Positions 37,503 to 58,483 of a stretch of DNA of 64,000 nt are shown in pieces. Every line of letters begins with the position of its first letter. Position 1 is the first letter of the stretch. The notes beneath the pieces are model-generated. The model was not told the DNA's origin. It did not search any database and saw only the letters and a list, made by a program, of their open reading frames with translations. The translations under genes were made by a program, and so were the position numbers. Origin of the DNA: a virus (taxonomy: Duplodnaviria > Heunggongvirae > Uroviricota > Caudoviricetes); IMG/VR virus record IMGVR_UViG_3300032167_005013. One strand, 5' to 3'.

Positions 37503-39551
37503 TTAATTCAGAACCTCTGCATCGTCGCCGTCATAGTACATGAAACCATAAAGGCCTTCACTACCTTTGACAAGTTCGATGTGTCCTGCAGCGACTGTCT
37601 CATCAGTTGCTGTTTCAACCTTAACCGAAACCTTAGGGTTGTTAGGGTCAGCGTTGTTTACTTCAATAGCATTGTCTGCGGAAGTAACTGAATTCACACC
37701 ACCCGCAACAGCAGCGCGAATGCTATCCTGAATACCCTGAAGGACTGTTGAAATCTTGGTATCTCCTGAATAAATCGCATCACCTGTTGCGCCAGTAATA
37801 TCACTACCGAGAGCAATATCCTTAGCAGCAATTTCGAGTTCAGCAACCTTACCCTCAGAAACTACAGCATCAATACCATTAACCTTAACAGCCTCAATTA
37901 CGTTAACCTGAGCGCCCTCAGCAATGTTATTAAGTTTCTCCTCATAAGAAGCCTCAAATTCATTGAAACCGTCTTTGGTTACGAAAGTATCGTCGCCATA
38001 CTTCTTAGCATCAGCAAGAACCTGAGCGTCAGCAGCAGCCCACTTCTTATCAATCTCAACCTCACGCTCATCGGTATAAGCCTTAGCGTCAGCAAGAGCC
38101 TGAGCAGCTGCGCCTGCAACCTCGTAGTTTCCTGCAAGGCCATCAGCATATTCTTTAGCAGCCCTAAGAACCTCATTATCAAGTTCAGTTATCTTATCAA
38201 GGAATGCTTGTGAAACTGCAATACCATTAGTTGTTACCTGAAGATAAGTGTTTGCAGTCTCATCAACCTTTACCTTGAACGTTTTACCATCAAGAACAAG
38301 GCCATCACCCGCAGCATAGTAATCAAGAAGGTCTGTTACATCCATGCGGATATCTTCTTTACCTGCAGCAGTATTGAAGGTCAATACGAGATATTTCTCA
38401 CCGGCCTCACCTTCTTTAGGTCCATCAAGAACAGCACCTTCAAGCATACCATCCTTAATGAAAGCAGTTGCATCAATTGATGAAACAACCTCACCATTAA
38501 TTCCCTGGAGACGAAGCACTGCATTCTGTTCATCTGAAGCCGGAACATAAGCAAGAGTAAGAGTTGTTTTCAATTTATCTCCATCAAGGGAAATAACTTT
38601 TTCACCATCAGCAACTCCCTGAACCGGAGCAGTTGGAACAATAACATCAACTGATTTATCAGCCTCTGCTATCACAAGAGCCTGTCCGTTAACTTTAACG
38701 ACCTCAAGTTTGTTAACCTGAGCACCTGCCTCGATATTACCAAGTTTAGTACCCTCATCATTAGTCATAAGACGAGAACCCTCAACCTTATCGACTTTCT
38801 TACCAAGTTCACCCTCTATTTCAGATTTAAGAGCAGCATCAGCACCTATATAAGCATCATGGTCAATTGCTTCAAGAACCTTAACGCGCCCATCCATAGC
38901 CTCGTCCTTACCATCGGCATAGTCTTTAGCGTCAGTAAGAGCCTGAGCAGCCTGTTCATCAGCATAAGTCTTTGCTGCATCCTCAGCATCGGCAATTTCT
39001 TTGTAAAGTCCTGTAGCAGCATCCTCGCCTGCAGCCGCTTTTCCTATTTCAGATTCAATACCTGAAACCTTAGTCTTAAGTTCAGCAACGTCAGCGTCAA
39101 GATTACCACTTGCAGTAGAAGCTGCGAGTTTCTGAAGTTGTCCCTGACCGATTACAATATAAGGAGCAGCGTCATATTCAACAGCAGCACCTTCACCTTC
39201 TCCGTCAGCATCATACTCAGATTTAGTCTTAACATAGATAACCTGACCAATATTATCATCAGTTGCAAGAGCAACTGCATCCTTATATTCTTCAACAGCA
39301 AGTGAACCATTTCCTGAACCTACGGCAACCCAAGCGTCTTCTGAAGTCGAATTAGCCGCATCTTTAAGCATGTATACCTGTCCATCTTCAACAACAGCAA
39401 CAAGCATACCGTTATATTTCGCCAAACCAAATGTATCATCAGCAAGCAAGTCAGCAAATGACTGTACTACTGTTCTATCATCAAGTGGCTGTGCACCGGT
39501 AGGTTTAATTGCCGATGCGAAGTTTATCATACCATTAAATAATTTTGCCAT
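37503..39551 (-). CDS. tail fibre protein, Ala/Asp-rich coiled coil, with an N-terminal domain shared with 41646..42578 and a GSGNGSLAVEEYKDAV domain shared with 54739..56685
   Basis: repeats of ADAKAYTDE / LADAKKYGDD type; shared domains noted in the findings. Confidence 0.6.
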   Translation of the reverse strand: MAKLFNGMINFASAIKPTGAQPLDDRTVVQSFADLLADDTFGLAKYNGMLVAVVEDGQVYMLKDAANSTSEDAWVAVGSGNGSLAVEEYKDAVALATDDNIGQVIYVKTKSEYDADGEGEGAAVEYDAAPYIVIGQGQLQKLAASTASGNLDADVAELKTKVSGIESEIGKAAAGEDAATGLYKEIADAEDAAKTYADEQAAQALTDAKDYADGKDEAMDGRVKVLEAIDHDAYIGADAALKSEIEGELGKKVDKVEGSRLMTNDEGTKLGNIEAGAQVNKLEVVKVNGQALVIAEADKSVDVIVPTAPVQGVADGEKVISLDGDKLKTTLTLAYVPASDEQNAVLRLQGINGEVVSSIDATAFIKDGMLEGAVLDGPKEGEAGEKYLVLTFNTAAGKEDIRMDVTDLLDYYAAGDGLVLDGKTFKVKVDETANTYLQVTTNGIAVSQAFLDKITELDNEVLRAAKEYADGLAGNYEVAGAAAQALADAKAYTDEREVEIDKKWAAADAQVLADAKKYGDDTFVTKDGFNEFEASYEEKLNNIAEGAQVNVIEAVKVNGIDAVVSEGKVAELEIAAKDIALGSDITGATGDAIYSGDTKISTVLQGIQDSIRAAVAGGVNSVTSADNAIEVNNADPNNPKVSVKVETATDETVAAGHIELVKGSEGLYGFMYYDGDDAEVLN

Positions 39552-39580
39552 ATCCTAAAATCAATATTCTTCAATTATTA

Positions 39581-41527
39581 TTAAGCCACTGTGAATTTAA
39601 CACGGTTAGGTCCTTCAGTTGAAGCCCACTCATAAACTGTATAAGTCACCTCTTTACCCTGAATAGTTCTTGTAACAGTACCGTTTGCGACGAACTTATC
39701 TTTACAATCAATAGCATATTTCGCTGTAGTTGGATTGATTGCCATTGCAGTTGTTACCTTCCAAGCACCAGGGAGGAAAAGACGGTATGGTTCAAGGCCC
39801 TGATTAGCAAATGAAACCGCAAATGAAGTATTTGATTTCATAAGAGCCAATTTAGTACCATCACCTGTTACTGGAGCAGCGAGGTCTGCCATAGCCGCAC
39901 CAGTTGCATCTGTAGTAGAAGCACTAACGCCATTGGTATATACAGGATAAACACCTGTTACAGTGAATGTTGCAGACTGATTAGAAGGGTCTTTTTCAAC
40001 ACCTGCCTGAGCAGCAATTGCAACTGATTTCTTCTCCTCACTTCTTCCACCAAGGTTTGAAACGATATAATAAGAAGCAACTCCATCATGTGAACCTGTA
40101 TGCTTAGGCGCATCCTCAGTTACTACATACTTATTAGTTCCTTCAACAGCAACAAGAGTACATGAAGCAAGCTTACATAAAGAAGCGGTAGCGTCTTGAA
40201 CTGTTGTTGGGAGTGTTCCTGTGAAACCGGTAGAAGCCGCTGAAAGTTCATAAACGTTGTTATTCATCTGTGAAACTGTCCAAGCACCTGAAACTGAAGT
40301 TGCGTCTACAACATCATCACCATCAACAGTAGCAGAATAACCATGCTCAAATCCACTTACTTTAGGCTCAGTCTTAGAAATTGAAACTGCATTTGCTGTA
40401 ACCTCACTGAATGTAATTGCCTGTCCAACTTCTACAAGCCCATTATTGTTTCCACCTGTTGCACTAACAGTTGGTGCTGAAATTGAAACACTATAACTTG
40501 GAGTATTCTTTGAAGGTACCGGATAGATTTCAACACAAAGAAGAGCCTTAAGAACTGCCTGAAGGTCAGTACCTGCAGGGATGACACCATCAGCAAAAGC
40601 AGATTTAACTGCATCAGAAGCAAGAGGGCCACCCTCAATTGTAATAGATTCCTTAAGAACTGTCTTATCAACTGTCATATCGTCAACAACAAGTTCATTG
40701 GATTCGTTAACTGAAAGGAAGTTGTTAGCCTCAGCAACCTTAACATTGAAAGTCACACCATCCTCAGCGAGTTCGAGTGCGGTACCTGCATTGTAAAGTT
40801 TCGCAAAATCAGAAACCTTAATCTCATCAGTCTTAGTTGACTCACCCTCAGTCTTCCAAGTGAAAATGATATATTTCTCACCATCTTCTTTAGTTTCAAC
40901 TTTAACATCCTCAAGAACGCTGTCTTTCAGGAAATCAGTTGCATCAAATCCTGCAATTTCCTCGCCACCAATTCCCGTAAGAGAGATTTTATTGTTCTCA
41001 TATTTAAGACCAATTGTTGATGAAAGAATACCGTCAGCAACATTAAGAACTTTGTCGCCTTCAGCAACATTCTTCACCATAATTTCAGTAAGTGAATCTT
41101 GAAGGTCCTTAATATCACCTTCAACTTCGTCGAAACGAGCAGTAACCTTAGCGAAAGCAGCAGCAAGATTTGCAAAATCCTCATCCATTACAGTGATTTT
41201 GCCTTCACCATCAAGACTAACATTTACAATACCTACCACCTTAAGAAGGGCTGCAGCTACATCAGCGCTCTCGTCATCAAGAGTGGCAATTTTATCAGCA
41301 AGAGATTCAATCTGTCCTTCCTGATAACGAGCATAGTGCTTTGTACCGAAATAAATGTCATAAATGTCGTTTCTTAAATCATTGTCATCCTGTACGCCCT
41401 CAGTGTTGGCATCAGAATCAACAACTGTTCTAACGAACCAAATATAACCTTTTCTATCAGCTGCAGCAACCTCTGCGAAAGTCGTACCAAGTACGGACTT
41501 AATACCTTTAAAAAGTTGTTTTGACAT
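39581..41527 (-). CDS. tail fibre protein
   Basis: 648 aa, low-complexity beta-rich, adjacent to other fibre genes. Confidence 0.5.
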   Translation of the reverse strand: MSKQLFKGIKSVLGTTFAEVAAADRKGYIWFVRTVVDSDANTEGVQDDNDLRNDIYDIYFGTKHYARYQEGQIESLADKIATLDDESADVAAALLKVVGIVNVSLDGEGKITVMDEDFANLAAAFAKVTARFDEVEGDIKDLQDSLTEIMVKNVAEGDKVLNVADGILSSTIGLKYENNKISLTGIGGEEIAGFDATDFLKDSVLEDVKVETKEDGEKYIIFTWKTEGESTKTDEIKVSDFAKLYNAGTALELAEDGVTFNVKVAEANNFLSVNESNELVVDDMTVDKTVLKESITIEGGPLASDAVKSAFADGVIPAGTDLQAVLKALLCVEIYPVPSKNTPSYSVSISAPTVSATGGNNNGLVEVGQAITFSEVTANAVSISKTEPKVSGFEHGYSATVDGDDVVDATSVSGAWTVSQMNNNVYELSAASTGFTGTLPTTVQDATASLCKLASCTLVAVEGTNKYVVTEDAPKHTGSHDGVASYYIVSNLGGRSEEKKSVAIAAQAGVEKDPSNQSATFTVTGVYPVYTNGVSASTTDATGAAMADLAAPVTGDGTKLALMKSNTSFAVSFANQGLEPYRLFLPGAWKVTTAMAINPTTAKYAIDCKDKFVANGTVTRTIQGKEVTYTVYEWASTEGPNRVKFTVA

Positions 41528-41645
41528 ATCTGATTATTATTTATTCTTATAATTCCAGTTTATTTTAACATTAAATTAATATCTCTTATAAATAATAATA
41601 TTATTTTAAATATTATATTTTTATTAAGATATTTTCTTACTTATA

Positions 41646-42578
41646 TTAGAGAATTTCGTTTTCCAAATCATCACCCGAAAGAGATATGCCCGTTGAATAA
41701 AGACCATCCTCATTAACAACCAAAACATTATCTTCAGCGTTTGAAATCTTCACGGAAAGTTTCTTATTCTCGTCTTTCTGAATTGTAATTCCATCAACAG
41801 CAACATCACCCTCACCACTTGTGATTGAATCAAGCCTGTCTTGAATTGTGATTACATCACCCGAAATTGTCTGAATCTTAGCGTCAGTGCTTGCGGTATA
41901 CTCATTAAATGATTCTTCCAAAGTCCCAACCTTTTTAGAAACATCTTGAATTTGCTGAGTATTGCCTGAAACCCTTGCTGAAATTGCTTCAATATTCTGA
42001 GTATTTACTGAAACATTTCCTGCTATTGAATTGATTCGTTCTGAAAGGCCTTCATCAGCCTTTTTATAGGCTTCATCAATTTCGCTGATACGGGTTTCAA
42101 CCTCAGTAAGGTCAACATCCGGAACTGAAGCGGAAATTACAAGACTGCCATCAATTTCTTCTACAAAAGCAATATTATCACCTGCTTTAAGTTTGTCAAT
42201 ACCCGCAATCTTTTCAATTTTTGAATTAAGGTTTGAAATACCGTTTGCATTTTCATCTGCCTTTGATGCTATATCCTTAATGCGTGAATCAAGATTTTTC
42301 AATTCACCCTCAACTGCATCAACACGCTCCTCGACTTTCCCCAAGTCAATAGAGCCATACTTCTCCCAAGAATAATCTTCAGTAAGAATATACTGTGCGG
42401 GGCCCTCACCAAGGCCATCATCAAGTACCATCACAACCATACCAGGCGTGTAATACTTGGCCAATACAAATGAACTGATTTTAGTCAGGTCTTCAATATT
42501 GGCGACAGGTGCAACCTTAGCATCAATATAACCCTTACCAGAGTATTTGAATTGGTCTGAATAATTTATAACTGCCAT
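41646..42578 (-). CDS. tail fibre protein (N-terminus FVLAKYYTPGMVVMVLDDG resembles that of 37503..39551)
   Basis: 310 aa with a coiled-coil segment. Confidence 0.5.
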   Translation of the reverse strand: MAVINYSDQFKYSGKGYIDAKVAPVANIEDLTKISSFVLAKYYTPGMVVMVLDDGLGEGPAQYILTEDYSWEKYGSIDLGKVEERVDAVEGELKNLDSRIKDIASKADENANGISNLNSKIEKIAGIDKLKAGDNIAFVEEIDGSLVISASVPDVDLTEVETRISEIDEAYKKADEGLSERINSIAGNVSVNTQNIEAISARVSGNTQQIQDVSKKVGTLEESFNEYTASTDAKIQTISGDVITIQDRLDSITSGEGDVAVDGITIQKDENKKLSVKISNAEDNVLVVNEDGLYSTGISLSGDDLENEIL

Positions 42579-42580
42579 CT

Positions 42581-43546
42581 TTATGCGTATTTGATTATAT
42601 AAGTTATTGAATCTTCTGGAATATCAATCACAGCCTCAGGAACTGCAGGGTCATAGACAGCAGAAAGTTCTGTGTCGTTAGCCGTCTTATACCATACATG
42701 GTAAGCAACGCCATCAATTATTGCATCATGCTCCCTTTTATTCCATCCTTCAATAACAGAATCGTTTGTGGAAGCAGCCAGAATATCAACAACCTCACGG
42801 TCAGTGATGATTATAATATCCTGAGCATTATTAAGAAGAACCTCAGTTATTTCAGCAGGGGACATTTCTGCAAGACCCTCTATTGCAATAGGTTCAATAT
42901 CAGCAACAAATGTCTCAGTTGCACTTTCACTCTCCATTGTTATGCTATCTATAACAGATATTGCATCAAAAATTTCTTCATCTGTCATAGTATCAATATG
43001 CCCTTTCATGGCTGCAATTTGATATGCAACTGGGAAAACTACCGGTGCATTAAGTGTTATCTGATACTTAAATTCCTCATCCTGATAAGTTTTCTTACCT
43101 GCAAGGGCATCGGTTTCAGAACCACCAATACCATAGTTTTCAATAGAGGCAATATCCCCAAGCCCGAATTGAATTCCTGAAGCGCCTGAAGTTCCTTTCT
43201 CTATTTTAACAGTGTATTGTTCATCACCATTGTAAGAAATTGCCACATACATATCAGAAGCAGTCGTTCCCGCAAACATAACAACAGCGTCACCATTCAC
43301 TATCTCAAGTGACATTGCCTTGGTTTGTATTGTAGGCGTTGTATCTCCGGTATTAGAATCAGAACCGGAACCTGAACCACTACCGTTGGTAATAAAAATA
43401 GTTTTTGAATATTCTTCTCCCGGAAGGTTGCAAAGGTCAATATATGCACCATTCCAATAATGACGTTCCTCTATCCTGTTATCACCCTCCCAAAGTTCAC
43501 CGTTTGGGCCGATTGAATTTTCACGTATATCTCCTAAGTAACTCAT
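42581..43546 (-). CDS. tail or baseplate-associated protein with a GSGSGSGS linker
   Basis: 321 aa; translationally coupled to the downstream fibre gene. Confidence 0.4.
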   Translation of the reverse strand: MSYLGDIRENSIGPNGELWEGDNRIEERHYWNGAYIDLCNLPGEEYSKTIFITNGSGSGSGSDSNTGDTTPTIQTKAMSLEIVNGDAVVMFAGTTASDMYVAISYNGDEQYTVKIEKGTSGASGIQFGLGDIASIENYGIGGSETDALAGKKTYQDEEFKYQITLNAPVVFPVAYQIAAMKGHIDTMTDEEIFDAISVIDSITMESESATETFVADIEPIAIEGLAEMSPAEITEVLLNNAQDIIIITDREVVDILAASTNDSVIEGWNKREHDAIIDGVAYHVWYKTANDTELSAVYDPAVPEAVIDIPEDSITYIIKYA

Positions 43547-43664
43547 GGTATACTAATTTAATTTCTTATAAATAGGTAAAAGACTAAGAAAAAGAAGCCT
43601 CTCTTATGAAAAATCCAAAAGAAAGACTTCGTGCAAAAATATATCAAGATTGACTGTAGGTTTC

Positions 43665-44480
43665 CTATTCAGTAGTCTTACCAAGTTCAAGACGTTTATC
43701 ATAGATATTACCCCAAATCTTTGTTGAATATCTAATAACGTAGCCGCCATCAGTTTTTTCAATATCAGGGTTGAATATCTCAGGTTTTTCAATTCCATAG
43801 CGATTAACATTAATGTATGCTAATGCACAAATCAAAGAATCACAAGCATCATAATTTTCTTTTTTAATCTCCCCTTTACCATTTCTTGACCATTCAATAT
43901 CAGGATAAAGGTTATTTACAAGGTCCATCATGATGACTTTCTTGTCAATATCATAAGGATAGGCACCAAAAAGAACGAGATTATTTGAATTAATATCTTT
44001 CTTTATATGTGCAAGAGGATATTCCTTTCCCTTTTTATTATATTTTCTTATTGAACACAACTCAGGGAAAGAAAAAGCACGAGAATCATATGATGAAATA
44101 AATTTAGGGACAATACCAAGATGATGATATATTGCCTCTGAAACCATACCATTGAATCGTATAAGTTTACCGACAGTCGAAATGTTATTGGATGATAAGA
44201 GAGGTTCCTCAATTATAACATCAGTTATACCAAATTCTTTTAATGGTACAATAAATTCATTCTCGAAAATTTGTTTCTTAATAAACAAAATCTCAATACC
44301 ACTAATATCTTTAGGCACTTTAGGTGAAATCTGAGTGATTTTTACTATTTCAGGTTTACTTACACCGTCATCAATAACAATTGATGCCCCAATGCATGAG
44401 GTACTAATATCAAGTCCCAAGATGACACGATGAATTTTGTCATCTTTCTCGGTAATTCGTATATTATCTGCTTCAGTCAT
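43665..44480 (-). CDS. RuvC-like Holliday junction resolvase
   Basis: ILGLDISTSCIGASIV at the N-terminus; DACDSLICALAY near the C-terminus. Confidence 0.55.
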   Translation of the reverse strand: MTEADNIRITEKDDKIHRVILGLDISTSCIGASIVIDDGVSKPEIVKITQISPKVPKDISGIEILFIKKQIFENEFIVPLKEFGITDVIIEEPLLSSNNISTVGKLIRFNGMVSEAIYHHLGIVPKFISSYDSRAFSFPELCSIRKYNKKGKEYPLAHIKKDINSNNLVLFGAYPYDIDKKVIMMDLVNNLYPDIEWSRNGKGEIKKENYDACDSLICALAYINVNRYGIEKPEIFNPDIEKTDGGYVIRYSTKIWGNIYDKRLELGKTTE

Positions 44481-44540
44481 TCAACATCTTTTAAAGAAAA
44501 ATAAGTTAAAAAAGTTTAAAAGTAAAGTTGTTAGTATCAA

Positions 44541-44572
44541 AATTTATCACTATATTTGCAACAAATATTTTT
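44541..44572 (+). promoter_or_regulatory. promoter box ttatcaCTATATTTGCaacaaatat (a near-identical copy is upstream of the primase gene at 36860-36890 on the minus strand)
   Basis: TAnnTTTG consensus 16 nt upstream of ATG 44576. Confidence 0.45.
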
Positions 44573-44575
44573 GTT

Positions 44576-44989: not shown

Positions 44990-44994
44990 AATTA

Positions 44995-47411: not shown

Positions 47412-48125
47412 ATGTTAAAAGATTTTAATAATATCTATGACGTAAACGCAGGATATTATTTTAAAGACATAACAAACACTAAGCCCTTAACAAGGGCTGA
47501 AGAAAGAAGACTCTCAAAAAGATGGAGAGAAAAAAAAGATGTAAATGCACGAAATAAGTTGGTTCAATCAAATCTGAAATTCGCTGCAAATATTGCGAAA
47601 AATTATAAAGGGCTTGGATTATCATATTCTGATTTAATTCAAGAAGCGAATGCAGGGCTTTTTAAGGCTGCAGATAAATTTGAACCTGAACTTGGTAATA
47701 AATTTATATCTTATGCAGTAAATTGGATTAGGGAGTCGATATTATCAGCCCTTAAGAAAAGAAATTCTCTCCCCTCAGAAGAATTGCCTGTTGAATACAA
47801 TGAATTGGAAACCTATGAGGAGGCTGATTACATTGATGAAAAAATGAGTGATGATATCTACATTGAAGATAACTCTGAATCTGAAAGAGAAAAGGATATT
47901 AATACAGTTGTAAACCTTCTCTTAAAAGATTTAACCCCAAGAGAACAATTCATTGTTACTAAATATAGCGGCATTGGTGAACGCAAGCCTAAAACATTAG
48001 AAGAAATTGGAAATGAATTGGGATTAACTAAAGAACGAGTTAGACAGATATATGAAAAAGCAATGAAAAAACTACGTGTTTCGGCACTTGAGAATTGCTT
48101 TTCTAAAGATATTTATAAAAGATAA
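47412..48125 (+). CDS. RNA polymerase sigma-70 family factor (second copy)
   Basis: region 2 FISYAVNWIRESI; region 4 LEEIGNELGLTKERVRQIYEKAMKKLR. Confidence 0.65.
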   Translation: MLKDFNNIYDVNAGYYFKDITNTKPLTRAEERRLSKRWREKKDVNARNKLVQSNLKFAANIAKNYKGLGLSYSDLIQEANAGLFKAADKFEPELGNKFISYAVNWIRESILSALKKRNSLPSEELPVEYNELETYEEADYIDEKMSDDIYIEDNSESEREKDINTVVNLLLKDLTPREQFIVTKYSGIGERKPKTLEEIGNELGLTKERVRQIYEKAMKKLRVSALENCFSKDIYKR

Positions 48126-51645: not shown

Positions 51646-51662
51646 CATAAACATTTTGTATA

Positions 51663-51694
51663 AAAAAGGCGGTTTAAAACCGCCTTTTTCTTTT
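51663..51694 (+). terminator. terminator (aaaaaggcggtttaaaaccgccttttt)
   Basis: perfect hairpin with a T-run. Confidence 0.6.
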
Positions 51695-51731
51695 AATTAT
51701 TCTCCTATTTATTGTTATAAAACTAAAAAAT

Positions 51732-52268
51732 ATGGCTAACGCTGAAAAATTAATGCCACTTATATTGAAATGGGAAGGTGGATATTCTCACCATCCTTCA
51801 GATAAGGGTAGGTGTACCATGAAAGGGATAACAATCGGAACCTATCAAAAATTCTACGGTTATTCAAAAACATGCACCGACCTTAAATGTATTACTGATG
51901 ATGAATGGCTTGCAATTTTCAAAAATGGATATTGGGACCCCATGTGTGGAGATTCCATTAAAAACCAAAGCATTGCTAATATTATTGTAGATTGGGCGTG
52001 GATGAGCGGTGTTAAAACAGTGTCAAAAAAAATACAGAAAATATTAGGCGTCAAAGATGATGGGATTGTAGGACCAATTACAATGTCATCATTAAATTCA
52101 ATGGAACAGAAACCTTTGTTCGATAAGATTTACAAAGAGCGCGAAAACTTCTATTATAATATATGCAAAAATAACCCAAGTCAAGAGGTTTTCCTAAAAG
52201 GATGGTTAAATAGACTTGCTGATTATACATTCGAGGAAGAAATCCCCGAAGAAAAAAAAAATAACTGA
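51732..52268 (+). CDS. endolysin: GH108 lysozyme-like domain plus a PG_binding_3-like C-terminus
   Basis: ILKWEGGYSHHPSDKGRCTMKGITIGTY matches the GH108 N-terminal signature (EGGY...D.GG.T..GIT). Confidence 0.65.
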   Translation: MANAEKLMPLILKWEGGYSHHPSDKGRCTMKGITIGTYQKFYGYSKTCTDLKCITDDEWLAIFKNGYWDPMCGDSIKNQSIANIIVDWAWMSGVKTVSKKIQKILGVKDDGIVGPITMSSLNSMEQKPLFDKIYKERENFYYNICKNNPSQEVFLKGWLNRLADYTFEEEIPEEKKNN

Positions 52269-52273
52269 AGAAA

Positions 52274-52801
52274 ATGAAGAAAAACATGAAAAAAAACATT
52301 TTATTGACTATATTCGTGAGTTTTGTAATGCTTGCATCTTTAGGAGGATGCGGAACAATAAAACATGTGCCGGTAACCGATAAAACCGATGTGGCAACAC
52401 GTGATAGCATTATTTTTCGAGACAGCACAAGAGTTATTGATTCTATTATTTATGTGCAAATCCCTCGTGAAAAAGTGATGGATATAATTTCACAAATCGA
52501 CACAAGCAATCTCGAAACAAGCGTGGCTAAATCAACTGCTTATGTTGACACAACCTCGTTAATGATAATCCATTCTTTGGAAAATAAAGATACTGTTATA
52601 TCTGAGAAAATCGTATATAAAGATAGGTATATTACAGAAGAAAAAATTGTATATCGTGATTCAATACAAATAAAAGAGGTGCCTGTTGAAGTGGAGGTGG
52701 AGAAAGTTAAATATCCTAAAACTTATTGGTGGCTGCTTGGGTTCTTTGTTATTGTCGTCGGAATTGGAATTGTAAAAATCTATTTAAAATTTAAAAAATA
52801 A
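52274..52801 (+). CDS. lipoprotein with a C-terminal transmembrane helix (unimolecular-spanin-like)
   Basis: signal peptide with lipobox SLGGC; C-terminal WWLLGFFVIVVGIGIV; position next to the endolysin. Confidence 0.45.
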   Translation: MKKNMKKNILLTIFVSFVMLASLGGCGTIKHVPVTDKTDVATRDSIIFRDSTRVIDSIIYVQIPREKVMDIISQIDTSNLETSVAKSTAYVDTTSLMIIHSLENKDTVISEKIVYKDRYITEEKIVYRDSIQIKEVPVEVEVEKVKYPKTYWWLLGFFVIVVGIGIVKIYLKFKK

Positions 52802-52803
52802 CG

Positions 52804-52835
52804 ACAGGTGCTTTTAAAAGCACCTGTTTTTGTTT
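52804..52835 (+). terminator. terminator (acaggtgcttttaaaagcacctgt + T-run)
   Basis: perfect hairpin. Confidence 0.6.
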
Positions 52836-52882
52836 ACTATAAACCATAAAATAACTATTTTCATTATAAAATATGTTAAGAT

Positions 52883-53065
52883 ATGGTGACTAAGATTTTT
52901 GTTTTTATACTTATATTCGCAATCCTTAATCTTATCAAAGAAGGATTTATATTCTATCGTTCATTACGTATGGGAGAGTCTGACATGACAACAACACGAC
53001 TTTGGGGTATAGGTTTGTCATTGGCTTACATTTTTACAATAATCTTTACAGGAATTGGATTCTAA
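52883..53065 (+). CDS. small two-transmembrane protein, holin candidate
   Basis: 60 aa with two hydrophobic helices. Confidence 0.35.
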   Translation: MVTKIFVFILIFAILNLIKEGFIFYRSLRMGESDMTTTRLWGIGLSLAYIFTIIFTGIGF

Positions 53066-53511
53066 TGGAACTTAATGATAAAATTGCAAAGTTGGGGTCA
53101 AGGTTCAGAAAAATGAACATTGCTGAGGGAATCATATTCCTTACTGTGGATTTTCCTAAAGAGTGGAAAATAAGTGAGAAAATCATTGCAAAACATGATG
53201 TGAAAGTAATGCCCACAGAAGATGGCGTTGGATATTATTTTGCAGCGACACTTGCAACAGGAATTGATAAAATTTTTAATGCAATTGATGAAACAATTAC
53301 ATTTAATGAGGTTGCGGGTATTAAAAAATCACTTTTCTTGGAAAAGGTAAACGAACTTCAAACAATATTCGAGGAAGAACCTCTTGATGTACTTCAAACA
53401 ATAGAATTCAAATATAGAAAGAAAAAACCAAAAAACACCCGTAAAACTGAAGAAAATATCGAAGATAATAATGAAAAAATAGAAGAAGGTGAATCATGTC
53501 TAGCTGGTTAA
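53066..53511 (+). CDS. hypothetical protein
   Basis: ATG overlaps the upstream stop (TAATG). Confidence 0.4.
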
Positions 53512-53885
53512 TTGTTCTTTGTTATTCTATAATGGCTTATGGGATTTGTAATATTATTGTTTTTGGGTCCGGGCCATTTCGTATTTTTGAAAAATTAAGA
53601 TATTGGAGTGATTACATTGATGAACATTTTGGTCAACTTTTTTCCTGCATGATGTGTCTTCCAACCAATTTAGGAATTGTATTATCCATTATAAATTGGT
53701 TCCTAATTCCAATTGCATTTACACCGTTTAATATCATGTTTGGTAGTGTTACAGGCCTTTGGTGGTTAGCGGCTATTTGTGACGGAGCATTCACCTCAGG
53801 TATTGTATGGCTTATTCATCACATTGAAGAATATTTTGAAAATAAGGTTATAACATCAGGAGAAAAAGTTTACGAAGATGACTGA
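53496..53885 (+). CDS. multi-pass membrane protein (holin or antiholin candidate)
   Basis: three to four hydrophobic segments in 129 aa. Confidence 0.35.
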   Translation: MSSWLIVLCYSIMAYGICNIIVFGSGPFRIFEKLRYWSDYIDEHFGQLFSCMMCLPTNLGIVLSIINWFLIPIAFTPFNIMFGSVTGLWWLAAICDGAFTSGIVWLIHHIEEYFENKVITSGEKVYEDD

Positions 53886-54150
53886 GGAAATGAAAAATGA
53901 AATCATATTGAACGAGGTTTTAAGAAAGAACGATGAAACAAAAAGAAATAAAGAAATGAATTCGTTCGCAAAAGCCTTGAAAAATGGCTTAGGAGAGGAG
54001 ATAAAGAAAGAATTGGTCAACCCTTCAAAACCCAATAAAAAGGCGGGGAGAAGGCTTAAAAGACAACGTTTTTGGGGCAAATTAAAAGAAGATTTCAAGA
54101 TACTTTTCTTTAAGACGAATAAGGATGATAATGAGATTAGTTATGAATAA
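53878..54150 (+). CDS. small basic protein
   Basis: 90-aa ORF. Confidence 0.35.
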   Translation: MTEEMKNEIILNEVLRKNDETKRNKEMNSFAKALKNGLGEEIKKELVNPSKPNKKAGRRLKRQRFWGKLKEDFKILFFKTNKDDNEISYE

Positions 54151-54382
54151 AATTCCTAAGGGTGATATTCTAATTAGAATTGCTGATTTGCTAAAATCAG
54201 AATTTGAAAAAGAAATAGATTTCTCTATGATGGAAATACGTTTTAACGTTGGGAAAAACATGATACAGAAAGTCAATGAAGATTTCTATTATAGATATAA
54301 TAATGAAGGAGAACCTGAGCCTGCTGATGAAGTCGCAGTTACAACTAACGGAATTACATTCAAATACGTGGGGGAAGAATAA
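54125..54382 (+). CDS. hypothetical small protein
   Basis: 85-aa ORF. Confidence 0.35.
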   Translation: MIMRLVMNKIPKGDILIRIADLLKSEFEKEIDFSMMEIRFNVGKNMIQKVNEDFYYRYNNEGEPEPADEVAVTTNGITFKYVGEE

Positions 54383-54705
54383 TGGCTATAGTTTACATAC
54401 TTGGTGATTCAGGGCAAGATAATACTTTCAAAATTGGTGTGACACGTGGCCCTGTTGAAAAGAGAATCAAACAACTTCAAACAGGAAATGGTGGAGAAAT
54501 ATATCTTGTGAAAACATATGAAACGCAATATCCATTCTTCGTCGAAAGGCTTCTTCACCAAAAACTGTATCCAAAACAAAAACGCAATGAGTGGTTCAAT
54601 CTTGACGTTCAAGATATAGTTCTTTTTGAAAACTATTGCAAGGAAATTGAAAAACAGGCTGAGGCATTAAAAGAAAATCCATTCGCGAATAAGTTATTGA
54701 AATAA
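54382..54705 (+). CDS. T5orf172 (MUG113-like) domain protein
   Basis: VYILGDSGQDNTFKIGVT ... LQTGN ... LHQKL ... NEWF. Confidence 0.5.
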   Translation: MAIVYILGDSGQDNTFKIGVTRGPVEKRIKQLQTGNGGEIYLVKTYETQYPFFVERLLHQKLYPKQKRNEWFNLDVQDIVLFENYCKEIEKQAEALKENPFANKLLK

Positions 54706-54706
54706 T

Positions 54707-54733
54707 AAAGGGAGGTTTTAAAACCTCCCTTTT
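54707..54733. terminator. bidirectional terminator (aaagggaggttttaaaacctcccttt)
   Basis: perfect 12-bp stem between convergent genes. Confidence 0.6.
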
Positions 54734-54738
54734 CTATA

Positions 54739-56685
54739 TTAAAGTGCTATCATTTTAGTCCACTTAGCGAAATTGTGTTGAATTTCAAGCAAATAATTTG
54801 TATTAGTTTCCAAATCAGCAATCGGAATATTTGATAAAATTATATCTGCAGGAAGGGATATTGTTCCAAATGTATCACTTGTCTTGAACAGAACTGAATA
54901 ACGATAAGCAACCTCGCCCTCAGTTTCCTCATAAGTTAATGTTAAATTGGATACCGGTTCCTCAATAACATGCAATGTATTTGGTTTAATTGTAAGAGTA
55001 CCCTCCACCGGAACTGTTGTGTCTATAGCCCAATTCACCTGTGAATTAATATCATTAAGGGATGCTGTCATTGCAATAACAGTTGCCCCAAGAGTATTCT
55101 CAATTTTCCTCACAGCAGTATTGACGTTATCCCCCATTACAATTGAATCCATTGTATAAGATGCTTCTTCAAGAGTTTCATCAAGAACAATATCCTTGCC
55201 TTCAAGAACAACGCCATTTTCTTGGGAAATTGTATAACCATTTACGGTATATGCATCAATAGCCTCAGTCTTTTCATTGAAAGCTTTTCCCTGTTCCTCA
55301 ATTTTATCAGCAAGAACCTTAAGTTCATCCTGAGTACCGTCAGCAGATACTATATATGAAAGTTTTCCTTCACCTTCAACAAGATAAAATCCCTCAAGGT
55401 AAACAACCTCATTATACTCCGAATCCTTCTTGGTCTTAAAAATTTGTCCTACATTGTTTGCGGTGGCACGTTGAACTGCAGTGGCATAATTCTCAACTTC
55501 CTGAGGTTTTAAATTATTCATATTCAATTTCAACGAGGAAGTTTCGCCACTTATTGCCGAAATACTATCCGTATTACCTGATACTGTTTCTGAAAGACTT
55601 GCCAATTCCTCACTATATCCTGATACAACCATTGAAAGGTTCGCCAATTCTTCTGTATTACCTGATACTGTTTCTGAAAGACTTGCCAATTCTTCTGTGT
55701 GGCCACTAATTGTATCAGTAATTACCGATAAAATATTTTCAATCTCAGATATGCGTGTTTTAAACGTTTCAGCAATAACAAGACTACCATTTTCATCAAA
55801 TGCAAGAATAGTTTCATTTTCACCTAACCTAATTCCAATAATTTGGTTTTCTAAAGAAATGCCATCCCCCGAAGAGTATTGTTCAGTAAACATCTCTGAA
55901 ACGTCAACCATAATATCCTCTTTTTGGGCGGCTTCAGTAAATGTCAACACAAGGTATTTTACCCCATCAACCTCATCAATATAAACATTTTCAACTCTTC
56001 CATCAGCAACGCCTTCAATGTTATCAACAGAAACAGTAAATGCAACAGTCTTATCAGTAACCGGAAGTTCCTCACCATTTACAATGATTTTTTCAATAAC
56101 GTTAGCCTGAGCATTGGTTTCAATGCCCTGAAGTTTTGTGATATCTGAATCTGAAACAAGTGAGTAACCACTTTTAATATCAACTTTTTTATCAAGTTCA
56201 GAATTTAATTCCCCAACGCTTATTTTCAACCCTGCAATCTCAGTATCCACATCAGCATCACCGGAAGCAAGTGACATTGAAAGTTTCATGAGTTCACCTT
56301 CACCTATAACAATATAAGGCCCTGTGTAATATGTTTGATTGTCATATACACTATCGTTCTTAACGAATATAATTTGTCCAAGATTTTCGGCAGATGCTTC
56401 AATAACTGCGTCTTTATATTCCTCTACTGCAAGTGAACCGTTTCCGGATATTTTTACAACATCCCCCAATGTATTTTTAATGTATATGCTTGGGTCATTC
56501 GCATTATTGTTAATAACAAGAATACCTTTATTGAGTTCCAATTGTTCTGTTTTAAGAACATCATATAGAGGATGGTCAGGCTGAACGTCTATGAAAAATT
56601 TTGCAAGTTCATTATTAATTTCAGTCTGAGTTGTTCCCGTAACACGGTTTACATGGCCGTGCACAATGTTTCTATTATTTGCCAT
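54739..56685 (-). CDS. tail fibre protein with two copies of the GSLAVEEYKDAV-type domain and in-frame 28-aa tandem repeats
   Basis: shares a domain with 37503..39551; internal repeats VSGNTEELANLS... appear three times. Confidence 0.6.
   Translation of the reverse strand: MANNRNIVHGHVNRVTGTTQTEINNELAKFFIDVQPDHPLYDVLKTEQLELNKGILVINNNANDPSIYIKNTLGDVVKISGNGSLAVEEYKDAVIEASAENLGQIIFVKNDSVYDNQTYYTGPYIVIGEGELMKLSMSLASGDADVDTEIAGLKISVGELNSELDKKVDIKSGYSLVSDSDITKLQGIETNAQANVIEKIIVNGEELPVTDKTVAFTVSVDNIEGVADGRVENVYIDEVDGVKYLVLTFTEAAQKEDIMVDVSEMFTEQYSSGDGISLENQIIGIRLGENETILAFDENGSLVIAETFKTRISEIENILSVITDTISGHTEELASLSETVSGNTEELANLSMVVSGYSEELASLSETVSGNTDSISAISGETSSLKLNMNNLKPQEVENYATAVQRATANNVGQIFKTKKDSEYNEVVYLEGFYLVEGEGKLSYIVSADGTQDELKVLADKIEEQGKAFNEKTEAIDAYTVNGYTISQENGVVLEGKDIVLDETLEEASYTMDSIVMGDNVNTAVRKIENTLGATVIAMTASLNDINSQVNWAIDTTVPVEGTLTIKPNTLHVIEEPVSNLTLTYEETEGEVAYRYSVLFKTSDTFGTISLPADIILSNIPIADLETNTNYLLEIQHNFAKWTKMIAL
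55528..55720 (-). repeat. about three 84-nt in-frame tandem repeats inside the fibre gene (an exact 38-nt core at 55571-55608 and 55655-55692)
   Basis: seen in sequence. Confidence 0.7.
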
Positions 56686-56737
56686 TGATTATAACCTTTT
56701 TAATTATCTATAAATAGTTAAAATACATGTAAAAAAC

Positions 56738-56761
56738 AATGGGGGACCATTGGTCCCCCAT
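56738..56761 (-). terminator. terminator (atgggggaccattggtcccccat), with a T-run on the minus strand
   Basis: perfect 10-bp stem. Confidence 0.55.
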
Positions 56762-56788
56762 ATATTTTAACATAAACTATTAGGCCTA

Positions 56789-58483
56789 TTAATATTCGCC
56801 ACAGTCAATTGTCATGTTAGAAAAATCAATCGCTACTGCAGTACCTGTCTTAACGGCACTTACACCTGTAAGATTAGATACTGTAACACTCTGAACGGCT
56901 GTATCTGCGGTTGATTTAACACCTACAAGAGCATCAGCCGATGCAATATCATTTTCAGCAACATTTACAGCTGTAACCTTACCATCTTGCTCAATAACCT
57001 CAACAGCAACGTGCTTACCACTTGCAACAGTAGCAGTACCTGCTGTAGCATCAAGTGCTCCTATTGCGTCGCTAATCTGAGTTGCAACTGGAGTCTCGCC
57101 TACGAGCCCCTGAAGACCTGTAATTGCTGTTGCATTATTATCAGCCTTTGTCTGAGCAGCGGTTATTGCAGCCTGAATTGAACCCTGTGTAGTATATCCT
57201 GATGTTACTTTCTTAAGATTGTCGATATCACTAACCATCTGCGCTGATGAAGTTTCATCACTGGAAATCCAAGCAGCGATTTCTTGCAATGTATCAAAAT
57301 CTTCTGGTGCCTCAGCAATAACCTTCGCAACCTCTGCAGCGGCAATTTCACGAGCAGACATATCTTCATCGTCACCTACGAGTGTATTAACTTTTGTCTG
57401 AAGGGCTGAAAGGTCATCTGAAGTAGCGAACTCACTCATATCCTCAGTTACTGTAACACCTGTGATAACGCCATCAAGCTGGTCAACTTTAACTGTTACA
57501 TGAGCACTTGAACCTGTTTCAGATGCATCAAGTCCCCCTATTGCGTTGCTAATCTGAGTTGCAACTGCAGTGTCGCCTACAAGTTCCTCAAGAGCATCAA
57601 TTGCATCCGCATTGTCATCGGCTTTCTTATCAACAGCGCTAATTTGGCCATTAAGGGCTGTTGTAGTTGCAGTTATTGCAGAATCAACATAAGTTTTAGC
57701 ACTCGCAATTGCGTTACTCTCAGCATTATCCCATGCGTTAACCTTTGCTGATGTAATACCATCAATAACACCCTTATTATCATGGGTATGTGCAGATGAT
57801 TCAAGTGCTTCAATCTTTGTGCCGTGTCCTGCAATATTAGCAGTATTTGCACTAATTGCTGCAGTATTTGCACTAATTGCGGCAGTATTATCAGCAACGT
57901 CCTTTACGAGACCATCAGTACTGTCACCCACAAGTGCTTCGAGGTCAGATACACGACTTGTAAGGGTTTCGCCAGAACCTGCACCAACACCTACAGCAGC
58001 CTGAAGTTCTGCGATATCAGCCTCATTGTCCCCAACGCGAGTTCCGAGAGCGGTTAAATCAGCACCCTTAGCGAACTCACTCATATCCTCAGTTACTGTA
58101 ACACCTGTGATTTTACCACCAGCCTGGTCAACCTTAACTGTCACATGAGTACTGTTTCCTGAAGTACTTCCACTAAGAGCGGCAATATCAGCCTTTGTTG
58201 CTGCGCTGCTATCTCTGAAAGTTTCGAGAGCAGTAACTTTACCCTCTGCAGCACTTAAACGAGTATCAATTCCATTTACGTTATTTGAAATTGCACTTGT
58301 TAAACCCGTTACCTTATCAAGTGAAGGTATGTATACAAGAGCATCACCTGCGCTTGTCAATACAGCCAACTCAGTATCAGCCTTTGTTGCAGCATTACGT
58401 ACCGCAATCTCACCAAGATTAAGTTTTGTAGCATCGGCGAGTCGAGTCGTACCGTGTAAATGTATTAATGTTTGTCTTGCCAT
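56789..58483 (-). CDS. tail fibre protein with a 215-aa internal duplication and a 7-aa tandem repeat (AISANTA)
   Basis: exact 41-nt repeat at 57425-57466 and 58071-58111; N-terminus similar to the 18218..18568 product. Confidence 0.55.
   Translation of the reverse strand: MARQTLIHLHGTTRLADATKLNLGEIAVRNAATKADTELAVLTSAGDALVYIPSLDKVTGLTSAISNNVNGIDTRLSAAEGKVTALETFRDSSAATKADIAALSGSTSGNSTHVTVKVDQAGGKITGVTVTEDMSEFAKGADLTALGTRVGDNEADIAELQAAVGVGAGSGETLTSRVSDLEALVGDSTDGLVKDVADNTAAISANTAAISANTANIAGHGTKIEALESSAHTHDNKGVIDGITSAKVNAWDNAESNAIASAKTYVDSAITATTTALNGQISAVDKKADDNADAIDALEELVGDTAVATQISNAIGGLDASETGSSAHVTVKVDQLDGVITGVTVTEDMSEFATSDDLSALQTKVNTLVGDDEDMSAREIAAAEVAKVIAEAPEDFDTLQEIAAWISSDETSSAQMVSDIDNLKKVTSGYTTQGSIQAAITAAQTKADNNATAITGLQGLVGETPVATQISDAIGALDATAGTATVASGKHVAVEVIEQDGKVTAVNVAENDIASADALVGVKSTADTAVQSVTVSNLTGVSAVKTGTAVAIDFSNMTIDCGEY
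57840..57895 (-). repeat. 21-nt tandem repeat (gcagtatttgcactaattgcY, about 2.6 copies)
   Basis: seen in sequence; encodes AISANTAAISANTA. Confidence 0.7.

What the first reader, a model, noticed from the sequence alone, without database searches (positions are those of the whole stretch)
37503..58483. At least ten tail-fibre or tailspike paralogues in three loci with shuffled shared domains
A GSLAVEEYKDAV...PYIVIG(Q/E)G domain is shared by 37503..39551 and 54739..56685, and duplicated inside the latter. There is 20-nt near-identity at the DNA level (gcaagtgaaccRtttccKga). N-terminal anchor domains are shared between 37503..39551 and 41646..42578, and between 18218..18568, 56789..58483 and 54739..56685. 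Inference: ongoing modular exchange among receptor-binding proteins within one genome. This would give many fibre types, and so a broad or switchable host range, and provides homology for intragenomic recombination.
Basis: partly seen in the sequence, partly recalled or inferred. Interest (0 to 1): 0.55.

Follow-up and report, generated by a model that had tools for sequence, protein, structure and literature searches.

The report
Modular fibre gene family, huge phage
An uncultivated gut phage of about 350 kb carries at least six fibre proteins assembled from a shared kit of interchangeable domains, which is the familiar way phages vary their host-binding fibres, here built from domain families nobody has described.

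Summary
The sequence observations mostly hold. The GSLAV...PYIVIG domain is real: it occurs once in 37503..39551 and twice in 54739..56685, far beyond what composition explains. A second beta-rich "mid" domain links 37503..39551, 39581..41527 and 54739..56685.

"At least ten paralogues" is overstated. Six proteins are linked by sequence, a seventh is linked through a fusion protein found elsewhere, and four have no detectable relation to the rest.

The genes belong to a huge-phage lineage (contigs of 338-378 kb) known only from metagenomes, probably with Bacteroides-type hosts. Loci 2 and 3 are syntenic across relatives.

Shuffling is strongly supported across the lineage. Orthologues are segment mosaics, chimeras join one paralogue's N-terminus to another's body, and distal tips are replaced. 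It is not ongoing inside this genome: the longest exact DNA match between fibre genes is 17 nt. No invertase, inverted repeats or diversity-generating retroelement were found, so "switchable" is unsupported.

Tail location is inferred, not shown. This is a new member of a known kind.

Side finding: the B-family DNA polymerase (PolB) is broken by a split intein, and locus 1 sits in the gap.

The parts
37503..39551 (-). o37503, a 682-aa fibre protein. Layout: N37 anchor domain (nt 39318-39551), GSLAV domain (39114-39317), coiled-coil rod, beta mid domain (38172-38651), second rod, conserved C-terminal domain (37506-37931).
   Evidence: The family has 1242 homologues, on contigs up to 378 kb. Module HMMs place the domains. 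The AF2 model shows an a/b N-terminal unit, long helices and a beta mid domain. BFVD fold hits go to proteins annotated as tail fibre or tail protein, E 1.6e-9 to 4e-4.
39581..41527 (-). o39581, a 648-aa fibre protein. Layout: N39 anchor (41123-41527), mid domain (40658-41080), large beta-rich distal region (39584-40645) ending in a replaceable tip of about 110 aa (39584-39922).
   Evidence: The mid profile hits at 3.5e-23. Residues 295-632 match the crAss-like phage cr4_1 gp07 (VOG7718, YomR-like), which lies next to 'tail fiber protein; host specificity', at 29% identity, E=1e-13. The tip is replaced in L016 and L017.
41646..42578 (-). o41646, a 310-aa short fibre. Layout: N37-class anchor (42345-42578), coiled coil, then a C-terminal domain (41649-41846) related to a C-terminal variant of the o37503 family.
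   Evidence: Pfam finds only coiled-coil families. The gene is syntenic in L015-L017, where it ranges from 299 to 431 aa.
36952..37461 (-). o36952, a small protein of 154-169 aa downstream of o37503. In another phage its C-terminal domain is fused directly to an anchor+GSLAV head.
   Evidence: P0384 (234 aa; GSLAV at residues 87-145) matches o36952 residues 71-169 at 36% identity, E=1e-13. Conserved at 47-54% identity in L015-L017.
42581..43546 (-). o42581, a 321-aa protein. It is the first gene of the syntenic locus-2 cassette and has no detectable relation to the fibres.
   Evidence: Syntenic in L015-L017 and L021. No Pfam or PHROG hit and no BLAST link.
54739..56685 (-). o54739, a 648-aa fibre. 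Layout: N54 anchor (56449-56685, whose distal half is related to the N56 class), GSLAV copy 1 (56263-56448), mid domain (55732-56037), rod of 28-aa repeats (84-nt direct repeats at 55568-55611 and 55652-55695), GSLAV copy 2 (55336-55503), and a unique C-terminal domain (54742-55308).
   Evidence: Strain variant P0123 lacks exactly one 28-aa repeat, residues 331-358.
56789..58483 (-). o56789, a 564-aa Ala/Thr-rich fibre. Layout: N56 anchor (58304-58483), then internally duplicated beta modules (57424-57508 with 58069-58153; 57048-57167 with 57525-57644). The body is highly variable between relatives.
   Evidence: 907 homologues, but the nearest non-identical one is only 35% identical. Some carry PF12789 'phage tail repeat-like' (P0172, 1.3e-28) or PF24243 'phage tail tip' (P0205, 1.8e-9). 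In L018 this slot holds two N56-type fibres with unrelated bodies. Internal repeats.
18218..18568 (+). o18218, a 116-aa protein consisting of an N56-class anchor and a short tail. It is the first gene of locus 1.
   Evidence: The N56 profile hits at E=3.6e-7. Smith-Waterman z=11 against o56789. Weak PF24243 match, E=0.022.
18584..22520 (+). The rest of locus 1: o18584 (287 aa, unknown), o19420 (372-392 aa, candidate beta-helix tail protein) and o20637 (627 aa, about five internal repeats of roughly 75 aa). These are neighbours of the fibre genes, not demonstrable paralogues.
   Evidence: o19420 hits phrog_25268 'tail protein' at 4e-8 and the Sinorhizobium phage NosD-like 'tail protein' at 4e-5, over about 60 aa only. 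No homologue of any locus-1 gene appears in IMG/VR or in 36 related PolB loci. GC is 0.30, the lowest in the window.
58503..58994 (-). o58503, a 163-aa DUF4376-like protein that always lies between the giant LRR protein and the N56-type fibres. It may be an assembly or accessory factor.
   Evidence: Hits phrog_19239 at 1e-49 and DUF4376 at 3.5e-4. It is 42-48% identical to proteins of Bacteroides phages; BT-TP2 gp46 lies next to a 2262-aa protein. Syntenic in L018 and L019.
59053..63987 (-). o59053, the C-terminal 1644 aa of a giant BspA-type LRR protein (about 3000 aa in relatives). It heads locus 3 and is a candidate adhesin.
   Evidence: PF13306 LRR_5 at 3.4e-31. phrog_14959 at 2.5e-44, matching profile positions 1507-1986 of 2494. 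Relatives have proteins of 2964-3106 aa in the same position.

Best explanation
The window comes from an uncultivated huge phage of about 350 kb. Relatives carry T4-type capsid genes, and the host is probably Bacteroides-like.

The phage encodes at least six, probably seven, fibrous virion proteins built from one shared kit of modules:
- three classes of roughly 60-135-aa N-terminal domain (N37 in o37503 and o41646; N56/N54 in o56789, o18218 and o54739; N39 in o39581);
- a roughly 65-aa a/b 'GSLAV' domain that nearly always follows the N-domain directly;
- coiled-coil rods of variable length;
- a beta-rich mid domain;
- different distal domains.

The most likely working model is the standard one for phages with several fibres. 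The N-terminal unit fixes each trimer to a particular site on the baseplate or on another fibre. The rod sets the reach. The distal domain binds a host surface ligand.

The paralogues are old. They have diverged to 67-75% DNA identity, and each sits in a conserved syntenic slot. New combinations arise at module boundaries through recombination among related co-infecting phages and occasional illegitimate joins. They do not arise from current exchange between the loci of one genome.

What is shown: domain homology, mosaicism, chimeras, synteny, and the absence of switch machinery. What is inferred: trimeric state, presence in the virion, tail location, receptor binding, and host.
For: Domain homology beyond composition.

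Fibrous nature:
- The AF2 model has long helices flanked by small a/b and beta domains.
- Pfam finds only coiled-coil families.
- Among 82 other GSLAV-bearing proteins, the only structured Pfam hits are Collagen (2), the T4 Fibritin_C foldon (1) and LRR_5/DUF285 (1).

Links to tail fibres:
- BFVD fold hits to 'Major tropism determinant', 'tail fiber protein' and crAss-like 'tail protein' entries.
- The o39581 distal half matches a crAss-like gp07 next to 'tail fiber protein; host specificity'.
- PTR and phage-tail-tip domains occur in o56789 homologues.
- o19420 hits a PHROG 'tail protein' family.

Conserved head, variable rest:
- GSLAV is found in only 167 of 1.84 billion cluster representatives. 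It almost always occupies residues of about 75-165, in proteins of 140-1250 aa.
- The o56789 slot keeps its N-terminal roughly 60 aa while the body is replaced.
- The o39581 tip is replaced in relatives.

Lineage-level shuffling.

Synteny.

No substrate for intragenomic recombination and no switch.

Host and lineage: Gp23 and Peptidase_S77 lie near locus 3 in L018, and there are Bacteroides-phage and crAss-like homologues.
Against: - No protein here, and no homologue, has been shown experimentally to be in a virion or on a tail. The annotations of the matching proteins are themselves computational.
- There is no sequence match to any solved structure, and Foldseek against the PDB finds nothing.
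- The o37503 family keeps a conserved C-terminus (42-88% identity) across the lineage. That is atypical for a fast-evolving receptor-binding tip.
- One GSLAV protein ends in a fibritin foldon, which would fit neck or whisker fibres.
- The fibre genes sit among replication genes rather than in a recognisable baseplate module.
- Some mosaics could be metagenome assembly chimeras. P0082 lies at a contig end.
Confidence: 0.68

Rival explanations
1. The proteins are virion fibres but not tail receptor-binding proteins. They could be capsid, neck (whisker) or sheath 'hair' fibres that help with adhesion or assembly, as seen on some jumbo phages.
For: - Jumbo phages with capsid fibres (PTm1/PTm5) and tail-sheath hairs (Erwinia Y3) are documented (PMC13282480).
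- One GSLAV-family protein carries the T4 fibritin foldon.
- The o37503 C-terminus is conserved across the lineage, which is unlike a receptor-binding tip.
- No baseplate genes lie next to the loci.
Against: - The o39581 distal half is homologous to a protein in the tail-fibre module of crAss-like phages.
- PTR and tail-tip domains occur in o56789 relatives.
- Tip replacement and body replacement behind a fixed anchor are the classic signature of receptor-binding proteins.
- Different members of the set could sit at different places, so this rival may be true for some of them and not others.
Confidence: 0.2
2. One reading: the three loci are exchanging modules now, within one genome, through homologous recombination. 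This would give a switchable or rapidly changing host range.
For: - Shared domains exist in three loci.
- Chimeras between paralogue types exist in other genomes (P0082 and P0085).
- An intragenic 84-nt repeat does vary in copy number between strains.
Against: - The longest exact match between different fibre genes is 17 nt, and the shared regions are 67-75% identical.
- The junction in P0082 lies at a module boundary, not inside a shared domain.
- The loci are syntenic in relatives.
- A 96%-identical strain shows no swaps.
- There are no inverted repeats, invertase or reverse transcriptase.
Confidence: 0.07
3. The similarities are an artefact of Ala/Asp/Glu-rich low-complexity or generic coiled-coil composition, and the proteins are unrelated.
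For: The rod regions are compositionally similar and give only weak BLAST hits. Examples: o41646 against o54739, E=3e-4, and o54739 against o56789, E=2e-3. The rods of o37503 and o56789 give z=1.2.
Against: - The globular modules give z=10-27 with 0 of 1000 shuffles reaching the score.
- Eighteen columns are invariant across the three GSLAV copies, including Tyr and Gly positions.
- Profile E-values reach 1e-19 to 1e-23.
Confidence: 0.03

Closest known systems
Branched multi-fibre receptor-binding systems: Klebsiella jumbo phage phiKp24 with 14 fibres, PhiK64-1/RaK2, CBA120 TSP1-4, G7C (PMC9700779; PMC6872550)
   Same: Many fibre or spike genes occur in one large genome, spread over more than one locus. 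A short N-terminal structural part is shared within classes, then a helix or rod, then differing distal parts. The N-terminal classes plausibly encode where each fibre docks.
   Different: - No T4gp10-like docking domain was detected.
- At most one candidate is a beta-helix depolymerase (o19420). The bodies are coiled coils with small beta domains.
- The anchor and GSLAV domains belong to no described family.
- There is no sequence relation to those phages.
- Branching itself is untested.
Mosaic tail-fibre genes exchanged horizontally among phages (P2/Mu/lambda/T-even fibre mosaics, from memory; tailspike modularity in PMC10408124)
   Same: Segment-wise mosaicism appears among orthologues. Conserved proximal parts combine with swapped distal parts. 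Modules are shared with unrelated phages of the same habitat (crAss-like phages and Bacteroides phages).
   Different: Here the N-terminal anchors are swapped too (N37, N39 and other variants on the same body). One family (o37503) keeps its C-terminus while the middle varies.
T4 fibritin (wac) and other trimeric coiled-coil phage fibres
   Same: The plan is a small N-terminal attachment domain, a long segmented coiled coil and a small C-terminal domain. One GSLAV-family member ends in the Fibritin_C foldon.
   Different: There is no sequence similarity to fibritin in the window proteins, and extra beta domains interrupt the rod.
Hankyphage-type Bacteroides phages (BT-TP2): a giant protein, a DGR reverse transcriptase and a DUF4376 protein
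   Same: The o58503 homologue (42-48% identity) lies next to a giant protein (2262 aa), as in locus 3, where it follows the giant LRR protein.
   Different: The window has no reverse transcriptase and no template/variable repeat pair. The fibres that follow are absent from those phages.

Membership tests
Phage tail fibre / receptor-binding protein (generic) | Elongated, fibrous (usually trimeric) architecture | tested here: met
   The AF2 model has long helices at 151-271 and 448-541 between small domains. Pfam gives coiled-coil hits. Relatives carry collagen and foldon modules. The oligomeric state itself is inferred.
Phage tail fibre / receptor-binding protein (generic) | Homology to a protein experimentally located on a phage tail | tested here: inconclusive
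Phage tail fibre / receptor-binding protein (generic) | Conserved proximal part with a variable distal part among relatives | tested here: met
   The feature holds for two of the families. In the o56789 slot the N-terminal roughly 60 aa are kept while the body is replaced. In o39581 the last roughly 110 aa are replaced in relatives. It does not hold for o37503, whose C-terminus is conserved.
Phage tail fibre / receptor-binding protein (generic) | Presence in the virion and binding to a host receptor | not testable with these tools
   The phage is uncultivated, and no proteome or structure is available.
Branched RBP systems with T4gp10-like docking domains (CBA120, G7C, phiKp24) | T4gp10-like (XD) docking domain in a primary fibre | tested here: not met
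Branched RBP systems with T4gp10-like docking domains (CBA120, G7C, phiKp24) | Beta-helical depolymerase as the distal domain | tested here: inconclusive
   Only o19420 shows a short match (about 60 aa) to NosD-like 'tail protein' entries. The six linked fibres have no enzyme domain.
Invertible or shufflon-type switchable fibre genes (Mu G, P1 C segments) | Inverted repeats flanking alternative fibre 3' ends, plus a site-specific invertase | tested here: not met
   The only inverted repeats are short and imperfect (<=35 nt, 71-89% complementary), apart from terminator hairpins. No recombinase was found among the ORFs scanned.
DGR-diversified Mtd-type receptor-binding proteins | Reverse transcriptase plus a template/variable repeat pair at the 3' end of the target gene | tested here: not met
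   No reverse transcriptase was found in the ORFs scanned. The only direct repeats in fibre genes are in-frame internal module duplications. The top BFVD hit is named 'Major tropism determinant', but that reflects fibre-like shape only.

The most novel reading that the evidence does not exclude
The roughly 150-aa [N-domain + GSLAV] unit may be a previously unrecognised universal 'plug' for a combinatorial fibre system. It would be distinct from the T4gp10-type adaptors, and it would be confined to a lineage of huge gut phages and their neighbours (167 clusters among 1.84 billion). Under this reading, the N-class decides the socket and GSLAV acts as the trimerisation and branching node, which could explain why o54739 has two copies. 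In addition, the gap of the split-intein PolB gene may serve as a landing pad that captured a lineage-specific four-gene host-recognition cassette (locus 1) in place of the usual homing endonuclease.
Probability: 0.15. Interest if true: 0.55.

Novelty: new member of a known kind. Interest (0 to 1): 0.35.

Why it matters
Huge gut phages are uncultivated, and their hosts and adsorption machinery are largely unknown. This analysis defines a concrete set of modules and boundaries: three anchor classes, the GSLAV domain, the mid domain and replaceable tips.

That gives three practical handles:
- a way to find fibre genes in this lineage, where Pfam and PHROGs find nothing;
- candidate tips for host prediction and binding assays against Bacteroidales;
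- natural junctions for engineering chimeric fibres.

Conceptually it extends a well-known principle, modular receptor-binding proteins, to a new lineage with new domain families. It does not reveal a new mechanism.

Tried and rejected
- **Pfam and PHROGs.** Scanning all ten candidates gave only coiled-coil noise and one 'tail protein' hit, for o19420.
- **GenBank phages.** There is no DNA match. Only marginal protein matches were found for o37503, and none for o56789 or o20637.
- **PDB by sequence.** Single-sequence and profile searches found nothing.
- **Full-length AF2 model of o37503.** Foldseek against the PDB gave no hit with E<0.1.
- **The HMM of the o54739 N-terminus.** It finds nothing else in the window. 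The link to N56 needed the reverse search and profile-profile comparison.
- **N37 against the N56 and N54 classes.** They are unrelated by hhalign.
- **IMG/VR scans for locus-1 genes.** Nothing was found.
- **DNA-inversion or DGR switch.** I looked for one and rejected it.
- **Strain-level module swaps.** I looked in a 96%-identical strain and found none. The fibre genes are 93.2-95.7% identical against about 96.5% for other genes, and one rod repeat is lost.

Full report
**What the window is**

The sequence is AT-rich (GC about 0.30-0.43) and phage-like. It encodes:
- a family-B DNA polymerase, a primase, SbcCD-like nucleases and a RuvC-like resolvase;
- two sigma factors;
- ClpP and an SPFH/flotillin protein;
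- a GH108 endolysin, methyltransferases and a TnpB.

It has no near relative among 50,697 GenBank phage records. Identical or related proteins do occur on metagenome contigs of 338-378 kb. A relative carries T4-type Gp23 and the prohead protease 5 kb from locus 3. Homologues of individual genes occur in Bacteroides phages and crAss-like phages. I therefore read it as a huge, myovirus-like gut phage, probably of Bacteroidales. The host assignment is inferred.

**Checking the observation**

All-against-all BLASTP confirms the GSLAV...PYIVIG domain between 37503..39551 and 54739..56685 (43.6% identity over 140 aa, E=3e-20).

I built a profile from 74 homologous copies and searched all 410 six-frame ORFs of the window. 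It finds the domain in exactly three places: o37503 residues 80-146 and o54739 residues 81-139 and 398-444 (iE 1e-19 and 3e-8). The double copy is conserved in two distant relatives, so the duplication is old.

The three copies share 18 invariant columns. They score z=10-27 against composition-preserving shuffles.

The 20-mer is present twice. It sits in a 91-nt stretch of only 74.7% identity.

**N-terminal domains**

- o37503 and o41646 share an N-domain: z=8.6; HMM E=1.7e-4; hhalign probability 89.6% over 58 columns when the o41646 orthologues are used.
- o18218 and o56789 share another: z=11; HMM E=3.6e-7.
- The claim that o54739 belongs with the latter two is only partly right. Pairwise comparison and its own HMM find nothing. 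The N56 profile does hit residues 45-81 (E=8e-5), and it hits the same stretch in two orthologues. Profile-profile comparison gives 90.9% probability over 33 columns.
- o39581 has a third N-terminal class.
- The N37 class is unrelated to N56/N54 at this sensitivity.

A beta-rich mid domain is shared by o37503, o39581 and o54739 (z=19-23). It is preceded by an 'AQVNVIExVKVNG' motif that recurs before the o37503 C-terminal domain. The o41646 C-terminus matches a C-terminal variant of the o37503 family.

**How many paralogues**

Six proteins are linked by significant similarity: o18218, o37503, o39581, o41646, o54739 and o56789.

o36952 joins through an external bridge. P0384 is a 234-aa protein made of an N-domain, a GSLAV domain and an o36952-like C-terminal domain (36% identity, E=1e-13).

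o18584, o19420, o20637 and o42581 have no detectable link to the others. o19420 is a plausible beta-helix tail protein on its own evidence. "At least ten paralogues" is therefore an overcount. "Three loci that each hold fibre-type genes" is fair.

The matches between rods are compositional: o41646 against o54739, o54739 against o56789, and o37503 against o56789 (z=1.2).

**What the proteins are**

No Pfam or PHROG family and no solved structure matches them.

AF2 with a 58-sequence alignment gives a moderate model (pLDDT 66; domains 70-87). It shows an a/b N-terminal unit, two long helical rods, a beta mid domain and a mixed C-terminal domain. Foldseek finds nothing in the PDB. It finds eight viral predicted structures at E<=1e-3, named 'Major tropism determinant', 'tail fiber protein', crAss-like 'tail protein' and a Cellulophaga phage 'structural protein'.

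The stronger indirect evidence is:
- The distal half of o39581 is homologous (29% over 338 aa, E=1e-13) to the C-terminus of a 1204-aa protein in crAss-like phages. That protein lies directly after the gene annotated 'tail fiber protein; host specificity'.
- Homologues of o56789 carry the Pfam 'phage tail repeat-like' and 'phage tail tip' domains.
- Other GSLAV proteins contain collagen repeats or the fibritin foldon.

Together these make "trimeric virion fibre" well supported. "Tail fibre" is probable but unproven. Jumbo phages with capsid or sheath fibres are known (PMC13282480).

**Distribution of the GSLAV domain**

I searched a profile of the three window copies against 1.84 billion cluster representatives. 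Only 167 proteins reach E<=1e-3. In nearly all of them the domain lies at residues of about 75-165, after an N-domain of about 80 aa. The proteins range from 140 to 1250 aa. The [N-domain + GSLAV] unit therefore behaves as a conserved head joined to many different bodies.

**Is there modular exchange, and where**

For 120 homologues of o37503, identity to the window protein varies independently by segment:

| Homologue | N-terminus | Mid domain | C-terminus |
|---|---|---|---|
| P0014 | 95% | 42% | 61% |
| P0068 | no N37 | 94% | 48% |
| P0089 | 86% | 39% | 50% |

Across 88 full-length members, the pairwise identities of the four segments correlate at Spearman 0.01-0.38. There are 42-91 pairs that are >=90% identical in one segment and <=55% in another.

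Chimeras cross the paralogue types:
- P0082 and P0085 have the o39581-type N-terminus (61% over 137 aa) joined to an o37503-type body. The join is at the start of the rod, a module boundary. In its contig, P0082 sits where the o39581 orthologue would be, but the contig ends 45 nt later.
- P0324 and P0302 combine GSLAV with the o39581 distal region.
- P0300 and P0411 combine N39 with GSLAV.
- P0202 combines N56 with an o37503-type C-terminal element.

In relatives, the o39581 tip (the last roughly 110 aa) is replaced. The o56789 slot holds one or two fibres with the same anchor but unrelated bodies. This is the classic evolutionary pattern of receptor-binding proteins.

**Why exchange is not ongoing within this genome**

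- Between different fibre genes of the window, the longest exact DNA match is 17 nt. Shuffled controls give 10-14 nt.
- The shared regions are 67-75% identical.
- Loci 2 and 3 keep their gene order in relatives whose fibre proteins are only 43-66% identical.
- A strain about 96% identical over 30 kb shows collinear fibre genes, only slightly more diverged (93.2-95.7% against a typical 96-98%). Its one structural change is the loss of a single 28-aa rod repeat in o54739, at the only near-identical direct repeat in these genes.
- There are no inverted repeats that could flank an invertible segment.
- No invertase or reverse transcriptase was found in the ORFs scanned.

"Switchable" is therefore unsupported.

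**Mechanism proposed**

Each fibre is a trimer. Its N-terminal class selects an attachment site, either on the baseplate or on another fibre. The GSLAV domain follows as a compact node at the start of the rod. Rod length is tuned by repeat number. The distal domains bind different host surface structures.

Proteins with the same anchor class would either compete for or fill equivalent sockets (o37503 and o41646; o56789, o18218 and o54739). This follows the N-terminal anchor logic worked out for Klebsiella phages, CBA120 and G7C (PMC6872550; PMC9700779). The defining T4gp10-like domain of those systems is absent here, so I claim analogy, not membership.

The giant LRR protein (o59053) and the DUF4376-like protein (o58503) always accompany locus 3. 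They are probably part of the same host-recognition apparatus. This is inferred.

**Side finding**

The polymerase is fractured. In more than 20 relatives PolB is one ORF reading ...PIVGD|TDGFNFKLP....

In the window, the N-half (22612..25146) continues after VGD with a 189-aa stretch, 'SFTPDTPLFIRW...VTEDHSLF...'. The C-half (16463..18013) begins with 44 aa ending '...GLNVISN' before TDGFNFKLP. This is a canonical split intein inside polymerase motif C.

In relative L023, the gap holds two free-standing endonuclease-like ORFs, which is the 'fractured gene' layout of Dassa et al. (PMC2677866). In L040 the C-half is more than 10 kb away.

In the window, the 4.6-kb gap holds locus 1. Its four genes are on the opposite strand and have the lowest GC in the window. 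They have no homologue in any of the 36 related PolB loci or in IMG/VR. Locus 1 is thus a lineage-specific insertion rather than part of the conserved fibre set.

**Verdict**

This is a new member, with undescribed domain families, of the well-known class of modular multi-fibre host-recognition systems. Interest is moderate.

Noticed in passing
window 16463-18013 (-) and 22612-25146 (-), gap 18014-22611: The family-B DNA polymerase is broken inside motif C (VGD|TDG) by a split intein. Int-N is residues 656-844 of the N-half ('SFTPDTPLFIRW...'). Int-C is the first 44 aa of the C-half ('...GLNVISN'). More than 20 relatives have an uninterrupted gene. L023 has two endonuclease-like ORFs in the gap, and in L040 the halves are more than 10 kb apart. 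In the window the gap holds the four opposite-strand genes of locus 1, which have no homologues in any related locus.
   Followed up: partly
window 29629-31009 (TnpB ORF 29672-30847, -): An IS605-family TnpB (Cas12f-like TNB domain) element of about 1.38 kb is an insertion polymorphism. The 96%-identical strain L060 joins window positions 29628 and 31010 directly. Nearby short repeats: 31160-31194 is identical to 15609-15643 (35 nt), and 29355-29405 resembles 2191-2238 (86%).
   Followed up: partly
window 55568-55695: An 84-nt direct repeat (95% identical) in the o54739 rod encodes a 28-aa unit. Strain variant P0123 lacks exactly one unit, residues 331-358, so rod length varies between strains.
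   Followed up: yes
window 2601-2665 and 3171-3237: A 65-nt intergenic direct repeat, 94% identical, lies upstream of small minus-strand genes. It may be a repeated promoter or regulatory element.
   Followed up: no
window 1318-2178 (-) and 47412-48125 (+): Two sigma-70-family factors are encoded in one 64-kb stretch. Also present are ClpP (34290-34979), an SPFH/flotillin protein (31214-32773) and two DNA methyltransferases (7746-8555; 25279-25845).
   Followed up: no
window 58503-63987; L059 (Bacteroides phage BT-TP2): The pairing of a DUF4376-like protein with a giant protein in locus 3 is mirrored in Hankyphage-type Bacteroides phages. There a DGR reverse transcriptase sits between the two genes. 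The window lacks the reverse transcriptase.
   Followed up: partly
L023 18048-19733 (-): In a relative with the split polymerase, a 561-aa fibre gene lies directly after the PolB C-half. Its N-terminus is of the type seen in P0080 and P0159 ('...KRIFEKLEYAQAYVD...'). Fibre genes therefore recur beside this polymerase locus in different forms.
   Followed up: no
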